64,000 nucleotides of DNA from Escherichia coli (GCF_013315695.1 NZ_CP054353.1); one strand, 5' to 3'; numbered from the stretch's first letter, positions 23,610 through 29,628 are shown. Made by a program: numbers and translations. The notes: generated by a model from the letters alone, not told the origin.

Positions 23610-24320
23610 TCAGGGCAGATTTTGCTCCTTCTTTGCACTCAACCCGCCGTAATCATTTATCGTCCGCCAGGCGACATGACACGGTGTTATAGCCTGACAC
23701 CAGCTTGTCTGACGCTGGCTTTTAGGTGGCACAACTCCCGCATTACTTAACGCTTTACCATTTACGCTCACCTGAATCAGGTTAATGTAGTAAGGCGTTG
23801 GGTTAGTGAGTTGTACACCCTGCGAATTCCGTGTCCAGCGTAATTGTTGATAAGCTTCCAGCGGGTCGCCCGGCAAACCTTCGGGTCGCCAGAACAGTTT
23901 AAATACCGAGCGCATCGCCACTTTTACGCTCTGATTTTCAACTTTGCCGGATGGCACGCTGGCAATGCTTAACTCAAATAGCGTTTCGCGATCCACGGGC
24001 AAGATGTCGCTTTCCGTTCTCAGCAAGCGCAATGTGCCTGTAGTACCGGGCTTCAGGAGAATAAGTGGCGGAGCGGCCAGTAATGGTGCTGGTACTGTCG
24101 ACGCTTCACCCCCAGCCCAACGCGTTGGGCGATTGATTTTACTGTTAATAAGCCAGGATTCCTGACTGGTATTAGTCAGTGAAATAGATATCGAATCTCT
24201 GTCTGCCGGAAAGATAAATCGCGTTCCGCCGACCACCACTCCTGCCTGCAATTCACTCGCCACCAGCAGCGATAAAACGGCGAAAATCAAGAGCGCCAAT
24301 CTGTTCCACGTATTAGTCAT
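23610..24320 (-). CDS. ycbF: Fimbrial periplasmic chaperone (PapD-like) YcbF
   Basis: PapD-like motifs (KLFWRP); start uncertain (ATG at 24320 or 24347). Confidence 0.75.
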   Translation of the reverse strand: MTNTWNRLALLIFAVLSLLVASELQAGVVVGGTRFIFPADRDSISISLTNTSQESWLINSKINRPTRWAGGEASTVPAPLLAAPPLILLKPGTTGTLRLLRTESDILPVDRETLFELSIASVPSGKVENQSVKVAMRSVFKLFWRPEGLPGDPLEAYQQLRWTRNSQGVQLTNPTPYYINLIQVSVNGKALSNAGVVPPKSQRQTSWCQAITPCHVAWRTINDYGGLSAKKEQNLP

Positions 24321-24828
24321 AATGAAGTACAAATGTCGCGCTGGCATTCACTTTACCCGACTGCACATCGCTATTGACAGGTCGCAATTGCGCGTAAAAA
24401 GTTAATGGCACCTTACCGCTATGTAGGCTGTAGTCTTTACTCGCCTGGTTAAGCGGAATCAATATCTTCGCATCATCCAGAATTGCAATTGCCAGCCCAC
24501 TGGCTGCATCCGTACCACTTTCAATGGACAGCATTTCGCTCTGTACTCCGTCGGGGGTTCCTGAAAAGGTGACGTCAACCGTGCTGGCATCTGTTCCGCA
24601 ATCCTGCAAATTAATGATGAACGATTTCTCCGGGCCATAATTCCCATGAGAAAAACGTGTCAGCGAGACGTCGCCTAACTGCACATTGATTTGCTTGCTA
24701 TCCTGTGCCAGCACGCATGTATTACGGCGAAACGATCCGCTAATGTTGACCGTGCCATCATGGGCAAATAGCTCACAGCCCCCCGTTAATCCCAGTAAGA
24801 ACAGAATCCAGATTGTCTGTTTCAACAT
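24313..24828 (-). CDS. ycbV: Fimbrial-like protein YcbV
   Basis: 171 aa from internal ATG (MLKQTIWILFLLGL...); signal peptide and fimbrial subunit-like C-terminus. Confidence 0.75.
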   Translation of the reverse strand: MLKQTIWILFLLGLTGGCELFAHDGTVNISGSFRRNTCVLAQDSKQINVQLGDVSLTRFSHGNYGPEKSFIINLQDCGTDASTVDVTFSGTPDGVQSEMLSIESGTDAASGLAIAILDDAKILIPLNQASKDYSLHSGKVPLTFYAQLRPVNSDVQSGKVNASATFVLHYD

Positions 24829-24835
24829 CACTCCT

Positions 24836-25378
24836 TCACTGGTAAACCAGATCAAAATAGAGAACCGCCGTCGCATTACCGCCCGTTGCTCCCGCCTTTG
24901 TGGACTTATAACGAAGTTGATATTTGAGTGTGTTATCCCCGGCTTTTAAGGGCGTAAGAGGTAGGACCTGATTGAGCGGGATTTCTTGCTGACTTTGCGC
25001 ATCAAGAATTTGCACAGCAATCCCCGTTGCCATACCACCGCTTCCGCCTGTGTCAGTTAATTTGAGCAGTGTCGGCACAAGGGTGTCAGCCTCGCCGCTA
25101 AAAAGGACGTCCGCGCCAGTAATACCAGCGGCACAACCGGTGATATCGATATTCAAATCAGCAGCAGTGCTTACGGTATTCGCGGTCTGAAAATCACTGA
25201 TATTAAAATCACCAATATGAATATTTTGTAATGCACTTTTGGTGGCAACATCACAGCCCTGATCGACCACATTACCATAAATATGCATACTGACTTGTTC
25301 AGGTCCAGCTATCCCGACATGCATATAAAGCAAAGTGAATGATAAGATAACGACTTGAAATATTGTGTTCTTTTTCAT
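24836..25378 (-). CDS. ycbU: Fimbrial-like protein YcbU
   Basis: 180 aa, signal peptide, fimbrial subunit fold signature at C-terminus (YQLRYKS...LYFDLVYQ). Confidence 0.8.
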   Translation of the reverse strand: MKKNTIFQVVILSFTLLYMHVGIAGPEQVSMHIYGNVVDQGCDVATKSALQNIHIGDFNISDFQTANTVSTAADLNIDITGCAAGITGADVLFSGEADTLVPTLLKLTDTGGSGGMATGIAVQILDAQSQQEIPLNQVLPLTPLKAGDNTLKYQLRYKSTKAGATGGNATAVLYFDLVYQ

Positions 25379-26460: not shown

Positions 26461-29051
26461 ACTGAATCCATCCGCGTAATCGCAGCGTTAATTTGTTGTT
26501 CGGTAAGCTCGTAACTGATATGACAAATTTGATCGGGAGCGTCGCCCCAGCGTACAGTTATCGTTCCCTTCGCCGGCAAACCAGACATATAGAGCGAACC
26601 ATCATCATCAATGATACCGCTAATTGTTTGTGCGCCATCCAGTGTTGCCATTGCACCAAATCTCAGCGGCATACCCTGCTTTGATGTTTTCATTAATACC
26701 CTGGCCCCCGCATGGGCATTGAACTCCGCCAGAACCAATGCCCCTTTGGTGGGAACCACGTTTACTACGGCATTTTCAAGATCCACGTTACGTTTTAACG
26801 ACGCCGCATCAAGTGCAATTCGATTTTCCCGATAAGAAGTGGCATAAGGCACAACGGTATATCCACGCCAGTCAGTTTTCAGCCCGGTGCTGTTCGCCAC
26901 ACGAGTATTTTCGGCGCCTGGCGCGGCAATCAGGACATTAGTTTCACCCAATGATTGACCCAACGTAATACCCTGCGAATGGGCAACTAAACTGCCTGAA
27001 AGAGCGTAGTTCAGTTGTTGTTGACTGCCATTATCGCTGTAGTTGTAGCCCACTCGAGCATCTGCAAACGCCCCTTTGTAGTCCATGCTGGCGCTACCAT
27101 TAGCCGTTTTCCCCTCGCTGTTATATCCCTGTTGCACGCTGTAGCTCAGATTACCGTCATCGAGTAGTGTCTCCGTTAAACCCAGGTTTTGTGTAGTGTG
27201 CCCTTCGTTATCGATACTGGTATTAGAGGTCATCCAGGCGTAATTTTTTTTCCTGGTATAGCTATCATTACTTTTGGGGAGCAACAGATTGAGCGGCAGG
27301 GAAAAATTAAGTGCAAACACCTGGTCAGCGTCAGGTTGACCACGGGACTTACTGTAGTTCCAGGAAACCCCCAGCGAGAGATCTTTAATTTGCGTGTTGT
27401 AGCCAAACTGTAATAGCCGATCCTGTTGATCGGTATGCCAGTAAGTTTGCTGGCTACCGCTTAAATAAAACGAACCGTACTCGCCTAATTGCTGGGAGAT
27501 GTTGACCTGCAGTTTGCCACGTTTGGTGTAAAACAAATTGTAATAACGCGACCACATTGGCGTATCTTCATCATCACCGTCATTAAATTCGTAGCCATCC
27601 ATGTGTTTATACATAGTGTCGGAAAGGGTGTAGAAACCCGACGTCGAATAGCGGTAGCCCATCAATTGAAAGTTGGTGCCCAATTGGTTGAGCGTTTTGG
27701 CATACAGAAAACGATATGACTGCCCTTTATGTTCACTTTGGTCTGCCAGCGTACTTTTAGCTTGGGTCGCGTCGAACGAAATTGCTCCGAAATCGCCGAG
27801 GTTAAAACCCAGACCAAACATAGCGGCACGGTAATATTCAGCATATTGCCCTCCGCCATACCAGGTCGTTCCCCACGGCCCCCCCCATTGCAGCGTGGCC
27901 TGAGCAAATTTACTTTCTTGCTGGTCATTACTATTGGTTCTGTATTTCGCCAGCGTCACCGCATATTTGATGCGTCCCTGACGCTGGAGTAATGGCACGC
28001 TGGAAAAGGGCACACTGTAACTATTGACACTACCGTCAGCTTCTTTGATTTCAACCAACAAATCACCACTCGACGACGTAGAGTAGAGATCACTAATCTC
28101 AAAAGCGCCAGGCGAAACATAAGTTTGATAGATGGTGTAACCATTTTGCTTAATCGTTACCTGTGCATTGCTTTTGGCGATACCACGCACCACTGGCGCA
28201 AACCCTTTCAAGCTGTCTGGCAGCATGTTGTCATCTGACGCCAGCTGCACGCCACGAAAGCTGACGCTATCAAAAAAATCGCCTGCCGTATAATCATCAC
28301 CGACGGTCAGTTCGCCTTTTAATGGAATCACCGCCCGCTGCAAATAGCTGCTGAGATTCTTCCATTCTGCGGTTTGGCCACTACTGCGACTCCATGTTGA
28401 ATTGTTGCGCAATCTCCATGGGCCTAAATTAACGCCACTGTTTAAATTCAGAAAATAGCTGTCGCCAGAATCACTACCTGCGCTGCTATGAATACTGTTA
28501 GCCCCGCTAAATGAATATCCCAGTAATAGCGCGTTGATCCCTTCATCCCAACGTTCAGGGGGGACATAACCACGAGCGTTACTTTTGATGGCGATTTGCG
28601 GTACTGAAATTTCCAGACGGAGTTTATTCACATTAAAAGTTACGCTGGCATCCGGAATAATTTCCGCCAATGGCGCACACGCTTGTTTATCCAGTTGTTT
28701 AAAAGCCGGAAACGCATCAGTATTCACGCCCATTGCATCCAGGCTTTCAGTCGTCAAACAGGCGGCAATCCCCTTCTCTGGCGTTATCTCAACAAAATTG
28801 ACGTTGCGCGTATCTACAATTGTCTGATTCAGAACAATATCGACTCGATAAACCCCTGGCGTTATTTTTTGCCCTTTTTCGAAACGGGACAAATCAGCCA
28901 CCATTGAGGGATCATCTTTGAAAAAGGCTGGATCGAACCAGGTTTCAGCTTGTGCATTGAACGCTGCCGACACAAACACCACCAGCCCACCAATAAACGA
29001 TGGCACTCCACCAGAGCTTAACAGGCTGTGTTGTCGTTGAGTTCTATACAT
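26451..29051 (-). CDS. elfC: Outer membrane fimbrial usher ElfC (YcbS)
   Basis: 866-aa usher (PapC/FimD family); 10-bp overlap with elfG. Confidence 0.9.
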
Positions 29052-29075
29052 CTCGCTCTCTTAAATGAAGACGAA

Positions 29076-29628
29076 TTACGATTTACAGTTGAGTTGCGGC
29101 GTTTCCGCCCCGTAGTCATTGATAGTTCGGTACGTTACGCTGCTGTTTTTGGCACCCATTGGCAGAGAGAATTGGTATTTATCAAAGGGGGAAATCATTT
29201 GATTTTTAACTACTTTTCCACCTATTTTCAGGTCTGTCAGGGTAATGAAATAAGGTGTTGGGTTACTGACCGTAACCATGTCAGCTGACGAAGTGCAACG
29301 CAGTTTCGCCGGAGCCTCGGCTAAGGGATACGCTAAACCTTTTGGTCGCCAGAAAAGTTTGATGACGCTTTGTGTGGCAATCTTCAGGGTATTGCCTTCT
29401 TCCCGCTTCGTTGTTGAAGGGACTGCCCGTACGCTGGTGAAGAAAAGAGTTTCTCTGTCTTTCGCCAACGGCGCGCCAATGTACATAATGCGTAGCAGGT
29501 TCTCGTTTGCCGGATTCAGCACAAATAGCGGTGGTGTAATAATAAAGTCCGCTGACTTTTTATTATCTGGTGTCATCACCCATGACTGAATCAGATAAGG
29601 AACATCCGGACTGGTGTTACGTACACCC
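29076..29628 (-). pseudogene. elfD: 5'-truncated fimbrial chaperone gene elfD (ycbR), interrupted by IS1
   Basis: PapD-like chaperone reading frame (LIQSWV...KLFWRPKG...) runs directly into the IS1 terminal repeat at 29629; no native start, RBS or signal peptide. Confidence 0.8.

What the first reader, a model, noticed from the sequence alone, without database searches (positions are those of the whole stretch)
23610..29628. Promoter-less fimbrial operon remnant with all downstream genes intact, directly downstream of IS1 in the same orientation
elfC (usher), elfG, ycbU, ycbV and ycbF (a second chaperone) retain full-length ORFs although the native promoter, major pilin and first chaperone start are gone. 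The IS1 insA/insB genes are on the same strand as the remnant, so IS1-derived read-through could still transcribe it. Intact ORFs suggest the deletion is recent or that residual expression is tolerated.
Basis: inference. Interest (0 to 1): 0.4.

Follow-up and report, generated by a model that had tools for sequence, protein, structure and literature searches.

The report
IS1-truncated elf fimbrial operon remnant
An IS1 mobile element first landed in, and then deleted the front end of, a normally silent E. coli fimbrial operon; the downstream genes look intact only because this happened very recently, so it is ordinary genome decay and not a new system.

Summary
On the minus strand lie full-length ycbF, ycbV, ycbU, elfG and elfC, then a 553-nt 3' remnant of elfD. 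The remnant abuts an intact 768-bp IS1 (29629-30396) whose insA/insB run the same way.

The 64-kb window equals E. coli MSB1_4I except for one SNP and a 999-bp deletion. The deletion starts exactly at the IS1 left end. MSB1_4I still has the simple IS1 insertion in elfD, with a 9-bp target duplication. A third clone member, AF3, has the intact operon, and its sequence is identical to the whole 6,019-bp remnant.

History therefore runs: intact operon, IS1 insertion, IS1-mediated adjacent deletion. The deletion removed the elfD 5' end, elfA and 222 bp of promoter region. It ends 133 bp upstream of ssuE, in an AT-rich zone that IS1 hits repeatedly in other lineages. Four of those lineages carry analogous deletions.

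Intact ORFs reflect recency and need no read-through to explain them. Read-through from IS1 is untested. It is expected to be weak: P(IS1) is very weak and InsA-repressed, no hybrid promoter exists at the junction, and about 1 kb of RNA is largely untranslated.

Without ElfA and ElfD the remnant cannot build the normal fimbria. Low interest.

The parts
23610..24347 (-). ycbF, second fimbrial chaperone (245 aa with the PGAP start), intact
   Evidence: ORF. NCBIfam NF008483, 545 bits against a cutoff of 357, covering profile positions 1-236 of 236. Same length as K-12 over the 711 nt annotated there, 97.5% aa identity.
24313..24828 (-). ycbV, minor fimbrial subunit (171 aa), intact
   Evidence: BcfF/FimF-like. 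Same length as K-12, no stops.
24836..25378 (-). ycbU, minor fimbrial subunit (180 aa), intact
   Evidence: BcfE-like. Same length as K-12.
25390..26460 (-). elfG, two-domain tip-adhesin-like subunit (356 aa), intact
   Evidence: LpfD/BcfD/FimH-like. Same length as K-12, dN/dS 0.07.
26451..29051 (-). elfC, outer-membrane usher (866 aa), intact
   Evidence: NCBIfam NF011740, 1749 bits against a cutoff of 995, residues 1-866. Same length as K-12, dN/dS 0.04.
29076..29628 (-). elfD 3' remnant: codons 51-233 of the 233-aa chaperone. It lacks the start codon, the signal peptide and the first ~24 mature residues.
   Evidence: Alignment to intact ElfD of AF3. PGAP marks it as a pseudogene 'missing N-terminus' in MSB1_4I. 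It matches chaperone profiles only from about position 46 onward.
29620..29628 (-). Retained copy of the 9-bp IS1 target-site duplication (GGGTGTACG on the minus strand). The partner copy was lost with the deletion.
   Evidence: Both copies flank IS1 in MSB1_4I. Only the elfD-side copy is present in the window.
29629..30396 (-). Intact IS1 (IS1A type, 768 bp). IRR 29629-29651, insB frame 29644-30147, A6C frameshift motif 30084-30090, insA 30066-30341, IS1 promoter 30362-30389, IRL 30374-30396.
   Evidence: Sequence. ORFs. PGAP names it 'IS1-like element IS1A family transposase, programmed frameshift' on the identical DNA. Promoter-like site CTGCCA-16-TATGAT. It is the only IS1 copy in the window.
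30396..30397 (.). Deletion junction: IS1 IRL is fused to a point 133 bp upstream of the ssuE ATG. 999 bp present in MSB1_4I are missing here.
   Evidence: No complete E. coli genome in the collection carries this junction as one contiguous match.
30397..30529 (+). Retained 133 bp of the elfA-ssuE intergenic region (ssuE-proximal part)
30530..31105 (+). ssuE, first gene of the divergent ssuEADCB operon, intact. It now has IS1 as its upstream neighbour.

Best explanation
This is a recently decapitated copy of the cryptic chaperone-usher operon elfADCG-ycbUVF, produced in two IS1-driven steps. Step 1 (shown): IS1 made a simple insertion into elfD at about codon 50, creating the 9-bp target duplication GGGTGTACG. 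This state survives in sister isolate MSB1_4I. Step 2 (end-points shown, mechanism inferred): the IS1 left end (IRL) attacked a nearby target 133 bp upstream of ssuE, in the AT-rich elfA-ssuE intergenic region. This is intramolecular transposition, also called 'adjacent deletion'. It removed 999 bp: 158 nt of 5' elfD including one duplication copy, the 79-bp elfA-elfD spacer, elfA (540 nt), and 222 bp of upstream regulatory DNA. IS1 and the IRR-elfD junction were left untouched. The remaining genes (elfC, elfG, ycbU, ycbV, ycbF) are intact because no time has passed. They carry zero substitutions relative to an intact clone-mate operon. Functionally (inferred), the locus can no longer build ELF/Ycb fimbriae. 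It lacks the major subunit ElfA, the cognate chaperone ElfD and the native H-NS/SlyA-controlled promoter. Any transcription would have to come from the very weak, InsA-repressed IS1 promoter, across about 1 kb of largely untranslated RNA that is likely prone to Rho termination. The remnant is therefore expected to be silent and to decay.
For: - Clone relationships. Window 1-64000 equals MSB1_4I except for a 999-bp gap that begins at the last base of IS1 IRL and one SNP at 37577. At that SNP the window carries the species-wide allele. The window's source is therefore a sibling of MSB1_4I and not its descendant.
- Insertion signature. MSB1_4I has the 9-bp duplication GGGTGTACG on both sides of IS1. 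The window keeps only the elfD-side copy.
- Intact clone-mate. AF3 has intact elfA, elfD and the rest of the operon. It shows 1 mismatch in 14,019 bp and 0 in 7,010 bp against the window, and is 100% identical over the 6,019-bp remnant.
- Deleted segment composition.
- The end-point is an IS1 target zone. Independent IS1 ends lie at -81, -108, -120, -132, -150 and -154 from the ssuE ATG in other lineages, and the IS1 variants are 97-100% identical. The region is 28% GC against 51% for the window.
- Analogous deletions. EC09, HCP4S3_I4, ET82 and VE-T9 have IS1-adjacent deletions of differing depth into the elf operon.
- Gene integrity and long-term purifying selection.
- Promoters. The only minus-strand promoter-like site upstream of the remnant is the IS1 promoter. 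No hybrid promoter exists at the IRR junction.
- Literature. The operon is cryptic, H-NS-repressed and SlyA-activated through the 355-bp intergenic region (PMC5797941). The IS1 promoter is extremely weak and InsA-repressed (PMC12428005). IS1 ends do not drive downstream reporters on their own (PMC5526668). IS1 causes adjacent deletions that leave the element without direct repeats (PMC9330008).
Against: - No expression data exist for this isolate, so silence of the remnant is inferred.
- The deletion mechanism cannot be distinguished from homologous recombination between the elfD IS1 and a second, transient IS1 inserted at the -133 hotspot in the same orientation. Both give the same product.
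- Weak AT-rich promoter-like sequences native to the elfD remnant could give some elfC transcription. They are TTCAGT-17-GATAAT at 29590-29562 and ATAATA-16-TATTAT at 29566-29539.
- YcbF is a full-length second chaperone, 35% identical to ElfD. Some subunit handling is therefore not formally excluded.
- The exact junction is not seen in any of 5,426 complete genomes. It rests on this one assembly.
Confidence: 0.85

Rival explanations
1. One reading: the remnant is kept transcribed by read-through from the IS1 insA/insB promoter. On this view it retains some function, and that is why the ORFs remain intact.
For: IS1 and the remnant are co-oriented, and the consensus scan finds no intrinsic terminator on the minus strand between insB and elfC. 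Transcription can traverse IS1 from outside (PMC12428005, PMC8595720). elfC has its own ribosome-binding site, and a full-length chaperone gene (ycbF) remains.
Against: The idea is not needed, because there are zero substitutions against an intact clone-mate. The IS1 promoter is extremely weak and repressed by InsA (PMC12428005), and the sister genome has at least 40 IS1-matching places to supply InsA in trans. IS1 termini gave no downstream reporter expression without a fortuitous flanking -10 (PMC5526668), and none is present here. About 1 kb between the insA stop (30066) and the elfC start (29051) is mostly untranslated, which favours Rho-dependent polarity (inference). ElfA and ElfD are missing. 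Parallel IS1-deleted alleles decay further: HCP4S3_I4 has an internal stop in elfC.
Confidence: 0.08
2. Same history, different deletion mechanism. A second IS1 inserted in the same orientation at the hotspot 133 bp upstream of ssuE. RecA-dependent recombination between the two direct IS1 copies then excised the 999-bp interval plus one IS1.
For: The ssuE upstream zone is hit repeatedly by IS1, including same-orientation simple insertions (22F46 at -154) and a hit 1 bp away (EC5 at -132). The lineage carries many IS1 copies. The product is identical to what is observed.
Against: No intermediate with two IS1 copies at this locus was found. This route needs two events where intramolecular transposition needs one. 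IS1 adjacent deletions are a classic single-step outcome (PMC9330008).
Confidence: 0.2
3. The 999-bp gap is an assembly artefact, for example a mis-join or collapse at a repeated IS1, and the real genome resembles MSB1_4I.
For: The junction lies exactly at the end of a multi-copy repeat, where short-read assemblers break. The junction is unique among 5,426 complete genomes.
Against: The structure has every hallmark of a genuine IS1 adjacent deletion: a precise IS end, loss of one target-duplication copy, and an end-point in a verified IS1 target zone. Four independent analogues exist in finished genomes. A simple repeat collapse would not remove unique flanking DNA unless a second IS1 were present.
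Confidence: 0.04

Closest known systems
IS1-mediated adjacent deletion (intramolecular transposition), classically described next to IS1 in the gal region and in Tn9/IS1 plasmids
   Same: The deletion starts at the exact terminal base of IS1. The element and its other junction are unchanged. The surviving IS1 lacks matching direct repeats. The new junction lies in AT-rich DNA that IS1 uses as a target (PMC9330008).
   Different: Nothing mechanistically different was seen. This particular allele (IS1 in elfD, 999-bp loss) was not found in 5,426 complete E. coli genomes.
elfADCG-ycbUVF (ycbQRSTUVF) cryptic chaperone-usher operon of E. coli, encoding the ELF / Ycb fimbriae and resembling Salmonella bcf
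   Same: Same locus between pyrD and ssuE, same gene order, and the same lengths for the five distal genes as in K-12. Best family matches are to Bcf/Lpf/Fim components.
   Different: It lacks elfA (major subunit), the elfD 5' end (signal peptide and N-terminal strand) and the promoter-proximal 222 bp of the regulatory region.
Parallel IS1-truncated elf alleles in other E. coli (EC09, HCP4S3_I4, ET82, VE-T9)
   Same: IS1 is co-oriented with the elf genes, sits 81-150 bp upstream of ssuE, and elfA plus a variable amount of downstream operon is deleted.
   Different: They have different IS1 variants (97-100% identity), different end-points on both sides and different host lineages. In those strains the first insertion was probably in the intergenic region, with the deletion running into the operon. 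Here the first insertion was in elfD, as shown by MSB1_4I, and the deletion ran outward.
IS-borne outward or hybrid promoters (e.g. IS1-bla TEM hybrid promoter; IS2, IS3, ISEcp1 outward promoters)
   Same: An IS lies immediately upstream of, and co-oriented with, otherwise promoter-less genes.
   Different: No usable -10 lies at 16-18 bp from the IS1 terminal TTGGAG hexamer. IS1 has no complete outward promoter (PMC5526668, PMC9330008).

Membership tests
IS1 insertion sequence | About 768 bp with imperfect terminal inverted repeats of about 23 bp | tested here: met
   The element spans 29629-30396, 768 bp. IRL is GGTGATGCTGCCAACTTACTGAT and the complement of IRR is GGTAATGACTCCAACTTATTGAT, matching at 18 of 23 positions.
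IS1 insertion sequence | insA and insB' frames with an A6C -1 frameshift motif | tested here: met
   insA is at 30066-30341 and the insB frame at 29644-30147. AAAAAAC is at 30090-30084. PGAP annotates a programmed-frameshift IS1A transposase on the identical DNA.
IS1 insertion sequence | 9-bp target-site duplication on simple insertion | tested here: met
   GGGTGTACG flanks the same IS1 in MSB1_4I. In the window one copy is lost with the deletion.
IS1-mediated adjacent deletion | The deletion begins at the exact IS end, with the IS and its opposite junction retained | tested here: met
   The gap corresponds to L001 15398-16396, immediately after the last IRL base. The IRR-elfD junction is identical.
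IS1-mediated adjacent deletion | The new junction lies at a site usable as an IS1 target | tested here: met
   Independent IS1 ends lie at -132, -120, -108, -81, -150 and -154 in other genomes, in a region of 28% GC.
IS1-mediated adjacent deletion | Transposase-dependent and recA-independent formation | not testable with these tools
   This needs genetics. IS1 x IS1 homologous recombination gives the same product.
Functional chaperone-usher fimbrial operon (elf/ycb type) | Major structural subunit gene | tested here: not met
   elfA lies within the 999-bp deletion.
Functional chaperone-usher fimbrial operon (elf/ycb type) | Periplasmic chaperone with a signal peptide | tested here: inconclusive
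   ElfD lacks residues 1-50, including the signal peptide. The second chaperone YcbF is full length, but whether it can replace ElfD is unknown. The two are 35% identical.
Functional chaperone-usher fimbrial operon (elf/ycb type) | Outer-membrane usher | tested here: met
   elfC is full length, scoring 1749 bits against a cutoff of 995.
Functional chaperone-usher fimbrial operon (elf/ycb type) | Promoter and regulatory region upstream of the first gene | tested here: not met
   The elfA-proximal 222 bp of the 355-bp intergenic region are deleted, including the predicted SlyA site 8 bp upstream of elfA (PMC5797941). No other minus-strand promoter-like site was found apart from the IS1 promoter.
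IS-created hybrid or outward promoter | A -35 in the IS terminus plus a -10 in the flank at 16-18 bp | tested here: not met
   The junction reads TTGGAG-17-TAACAC, which scores 3/6 in the -10 and lacks the -7 T. No hit appeared in the standard or relaxed scan at the junction.

The most novel reading that the evidence does not exclude
The repeated, independent IS1 hits in the 355-bp elfA-ssuE intergenic region, and the repeated IS1-adjacent deletions that remove elfA, may not be purely neutral hotspot mutagenesis. There are at least 7 sequence-verified positions within 75 bp, plus about 14 more inferred, and at least 5 deletion alleles including this window. They could be selected, either to switch off an immunogenic or costly fimbria or to relieve H-NS silencing of the divergent ssuEADCB sulfonate-utilisation operon, as IS insertions do at bgl.
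Probability: 0.1. Interest if true: 0.4.

Novelty: new member of a known kind. Interest (0 to 1): 0.12.

Why it matters
It matters little on its own. It is a clean, datable three-allele series within one clone (intact operon, then IS1 insertion, then IS1 adjacent deletion) that shows how insertion sequences erode cryptic adhesin operons. It also cautions that intact ORFs downstream of a lesion do not imply expression or selection when the lesion is younger than the first substitution. The wider pattern, an IS1 landing zone between elfA and ssuE that repeatedly truncates the operon in unrelated lineages, could be useful for strain typing. It would gain interest if shown to alter ssuEADCB regulation.

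Tried and rejected
- I looked for the window's exact IS1-ssuE junction in 5,426 complete E. coli genomes. No contiguous match was found, only two-piece or shifted matches.
- I looked for a hybrid or outward promoter at the IRR-elfD junction and for any minus-strand promoter between IS1 and elfC. There is none at the standard threshold. Only weak AT-rich sites native to elfD appear at a relaxed threshold.
- I looked for intrinsic terminators that would block read-through. Counts were at chance level and not informative: 12 found against 8.7 +/- 2.8 expected.
- A crude C/G profile for rut-like sequence was only mildly C-rich in the elfD remnant, so I did not rely on it.
It is impossible within the clone because there are zero substitutions. 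Against K-12 it only shows historical purifying selection.
- I tried to read the primary ssuE promoter paper (PubMed 10506196) to place the ssuE transcription start site and the Cbl/IHF sites relative to the junction. It is not held. The effect on ssuE is therefore left open.
- I rejected the idea that the window is a direct descendant of the sequenced MSB1_4I. MSB1_4I carries a private SNP at the position equivalent to 37577.

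
Full report
**1. What is in the sequence**

All the features lie on the minus strand of the window.

| Feature | Coordinates | Note |
|---|---|---|
| ycbF | 23610-24347 | full length |
| ycbV | 24313-24828 | full length |
| ycbU | 24836-25378 | full length |
| elfG | 25390-26460 | full length |
| elfC | 26451-29051 | full length |
| elfD remnant | 29076-29628 | 553-nt 3' piece |
| IS1 | 29629-30396 | 768 bp, intact |
| ssuE upstream DNA | 30397-30529 | 133 bp retained |
| ssuE (+ strand) | 30530-31105 | intact |

- IS1 has both inverted repeats, insA, the insB frame, the A6C frameshift motif and its own promoter-like site, CTGCCA-16-TATGAT.
- It is the only IS1 copy in the window.
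- NCBIfam confirms a full-length usher (1749 bits, cutoff 995) and a full-length second chaperone, YcbF (545 bits, cutoff 357).
- The three subunit genes resemble BcfD/LpfD, BcfE and BcfF. The elfD piece matches chaperone profiles only from about position 46 onward.
- The five distal genes have exactly the K-12 lengths and no internal stops.

**2. Where it comes from and how it arose**

The window matches three members of one E. coli clone, related to phylogroup-F strain SMS-3-5 at 99.8%. Together they form an allele series.

- **AF3** (NZ_OZ547117.1) has the complete elfA-elfD-elfC-elfG-ycbU-ycbV-ycbF operon. It differs from the window by 1 mismatch in 14,019 bp and 0 in 7,010 bp flanking the lesion. 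It is 100% identical across the 6,019-bp remnant.
- **MSB1_4I** (NZ_LR898874.1) has the same IS1 at the same nucleotide in elfD, flanked by the 9-bp target duplication GGGTGTACG, with elfA and the elfD 5' end still present.
- **The window** equals MSB1_4I over all 64 kb except for one SNP at 37577 and a 999-bp gap that begins at the last base of IS1 IRL.

At 37577 the window has the species-wide allele and MSB1_4I a private one. The window's source is therefore a sibling of MSB1_4I, not its descendant.

The missing 999 bp break down as follows:

| Segment | Length |
|---|---|
| 5' elfD, including one duplication copy | 158 nt |
| elfA-elfD spacer, with its hairpin and T-run | 79 bp |
| elfA | 540 nt |
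| elfA-ssuE intergenic region (222 of 355 bp) | 222 bp |

Four features are the signature of an IS1-mediated adjacent deletion, that is, intramolecular transposition. A review lists this as typical for IS1 and notes that it leaves the element without direct repeats (PMC9330008).

- The break is precise, at the IS end.
- IS1 itself is retained.
- The opposite junction is unchanged.
- One target-duplication copy is lost.

**3. The end-point is not random**

The new junction lies 133 bp upstream of the ssuE ATG. Other, unrelated genomes have IS1 ends nearby:

| Strain | IS1 end relative to ssuE ATG | Note |
|---|---|---|
| EC09 | -81 | |
| ET82 | -108 | |
| HCP4S3_I4 | -120 | |
| EC5 and a group of near-identical hits | -132 | opposite orientation, duplication GCCCTTTCT |
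| VE-T9 | -150 | |
| 22F46 | -154 | |

- The IS1 variants involved are 97-100% identical to the window's copy.
- The record spans of the two-piece hits imply roughly 14 further positions across the intergenic region and into elfA. I did not verify these by sequence.
- The region is 28% GC against 51% for the window. It belongs to the H-NS regulon (PMC5797941).
- IS1 is reported to target AT-rich, H-NS-bound DNA (PMC3000339).
- Four of these genomes (EC09, HCP4S3_I4, ET82, VE-T9) also carry IS1-adjacent deletions reaching different depths into the operon. These range from the elfD 5' end to most of ycbF. HCP4S3_I4 has additionally acquired an internal stop in elfC.
- A second micro-hotspot exists inside elfD. 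HCP30S3_I2 has an independent IS1 4 bp from the MSB1_4I site.

IS1-driven truncation of this operon is therefore a recurrent, ordinary event.

**4. Why the downstream genes are intact**

They are intact because the lesion is younger than the first substitution. There are zero differences from an intact operon in 6,019 bp. Against K-12, dN/dS is 0.04 (elfC), 0.07 (elfG), 0.24 (ycbU), 0.14 (ycbV) and 0.16 (ycbF). Neighbouring housekeeping genes give 0.03-0.05. This shows that the operon was under purifying selection historically. It says nothing about the period since disruption. Within the same clone, MS 21-1 has an independent frameshift in elfC despite an intact promoter.

**5. Could IS1 read-through express the remnant?**

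The strands agree, and the consensus scan shows no intrinsic terminator between insB and elfC. The scan is at chance level overall. Several lines argue that any transcription is weak.

- The IS1 promoter is described as extremely weak and repressed by InsA (PMC12428005).
- The sister genome holds at least 40 IS1-matching places that would supply InsA in trans.
- 600-bp IS1 termini did not drive a downstream reporter. Activation needed a fortuitous flanking -10 to complete a hybrid promoter (PMC5526668; hybrid promoters also in PMC9330008).
- At this junction the only candidate is TTGGAG-17-TAACAC, which lacks the critical -7 T.
- IS1 insertion between a promoter and its target repressed transcription of that target (PMC3000339). 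Rho-dependent terminators are predicted within IS1A (PMC8595720).
- From my own knowledge of the classical literature, not checked here, IS1 insertions are strongly polar in both orientations.
- InsB is made only by rare frameshifting and the elfD remnant has no proper start. About 1 kb between the insA stop (30066) and the elfC start (29051) is therefore largely ribosome-free, which should favour Rho termination (inference).
- No same-strand gene lies immediately upstream. ssuEADCB is divergent and pepN is 4 kb away across the antisense ssu operon.
- The intact operon is itself cryptic under laboratory conditions, H-NS-silenced and only modestly SlyA-inducible (PMC5797941).

Read-through is therefore possible in principle, untested, expected to be low, and unnecessary to explain the data.

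**6. Functional consequence (inferred)**

- ElfA, the major subunit, is gone.
- ElfD has lost residues 1-50. These comprise the signal peptide and the N-terminal strand carrying the conserved ATR motif. From my knowledge of PapD/FimC-type chaperones, that motif contributes the subunit-anchoring arginine.
- YcbF is only 35% identical to ElfD. Whether it can chaperone ElfG, YcbU or YcbV to the usher is unknown.
- The most likely state is a silent, non-functional remnant that will accumulate further lesions, as in HCP4S3_I4.
- A side-effect worth testing: IS1 has replaced the distal 222 bp of ssuE upstream DNA. I could not place the ssuE transcription start site and the Cbl/IHF sites because the primary paper is not held.

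**7. Comparison and novelty**

The element is a bona fide IS1. The rearrangement meets every testable criterion of an IS1 adjacent deletion. The locus fails the criteria for a functional chaperone-usher operon, having no major subunit, no intact cognate chaperone and no native promoter. It also fails the criteria for an IS-created promoter. This exact allele is absent from 5,426 complete genomes, but close analogues exist. I rate it a new member of a known kind, with low interest (0.12).

The most novel reading not excluded is that the recurrent IS1 hits and deletions between elfA and ssuE are selected. Selection could act through loss of the fimbria or through de-silencing of ssuEADCB. I give that about 10%.

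Noticed in passing
window 30397-30529 and the corresponding elfA-ssuE intergenic region in L002, L003, L007-L010: The 355-bp, 28%-GC elfA-ssuE intergenic region is a recurrent IS1 landing zone. Sequence-verified IS1 ends lie at -81, -108, -120, -132, -133, -150 and -154 from the ssuE ATG in unrelated genomes. The hit spans imply about 14 more positions. The search was biased toward one IS1 orientation.
   Followed up: partly
L003 (HCP4S3_I4), L008 (ET82), L009 (VE-T9), L010 (EC09): Four independent IS1-adjacent deletions of different depth into the elf operon, reaching from the elfD 5' end to most of ycbF. HCP4S3_I4 also has an internal stop in elfC.
   Followed up: partly
window 29620-29632; L011 3654 (HCP30S3_I2): A second micro-hotspot inside elfD. 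An independent IS1 (97% identical variant, duplication CACCCAGTG) sits 4 bp from the MSB1_4I/window insertion site (duplication GGGTGTACG), in the same orientation.
   Followed up: partly
window 37577 (pncB-pepN intergenic): This is the only SNP between the 64-kb window and MSB1_4I. The window has C, the allele shared by about 4,059 complete genomes. MSB1_4I has a private T (GGTGGCATATGG versus GGTGGTATATGG). The window's source is therefore a sibling of MSB1_4I, not its descendant.
   Followed up: yes
L005 (MS 21-1) 10842-13443 and 18614-19391: A member of the same clone with an intact elf promoter has a frameshifted elfC and a frameshifted ssuB. These could be real decay or sequencing errors. 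I did not check.
   Followed up: no
window 30397-31105: IS1 now lies 133 bp upstream of ssuE, in place of 222 bp of H-NS/SlyA-associated upstream DNA. Regulation of ssuEADCB (Cbl/CysB/IHF-dependent, from memory) may be altered. The primary promoter paper was not available.
   Followed up: no
window 29640-29646: The insB stop codon (TAA, 29646-29644) is followed one base later by an in-frame TTG (29642-29640) that opens a 188-codon ORF, running from the IS1 IRR into the elfD remnant. It has no obvious Shine-Dalgarno sequence and would encode a signal-less chaperone fragment. It is probably meaningless.
   Followed up: partly
MSB1_4I genome: The sister genome reaches the 40-place reporting cap for IS1 matches, which suggests a high IS1 load in this lineage. 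AF3 was not counted.
   Followed up: no
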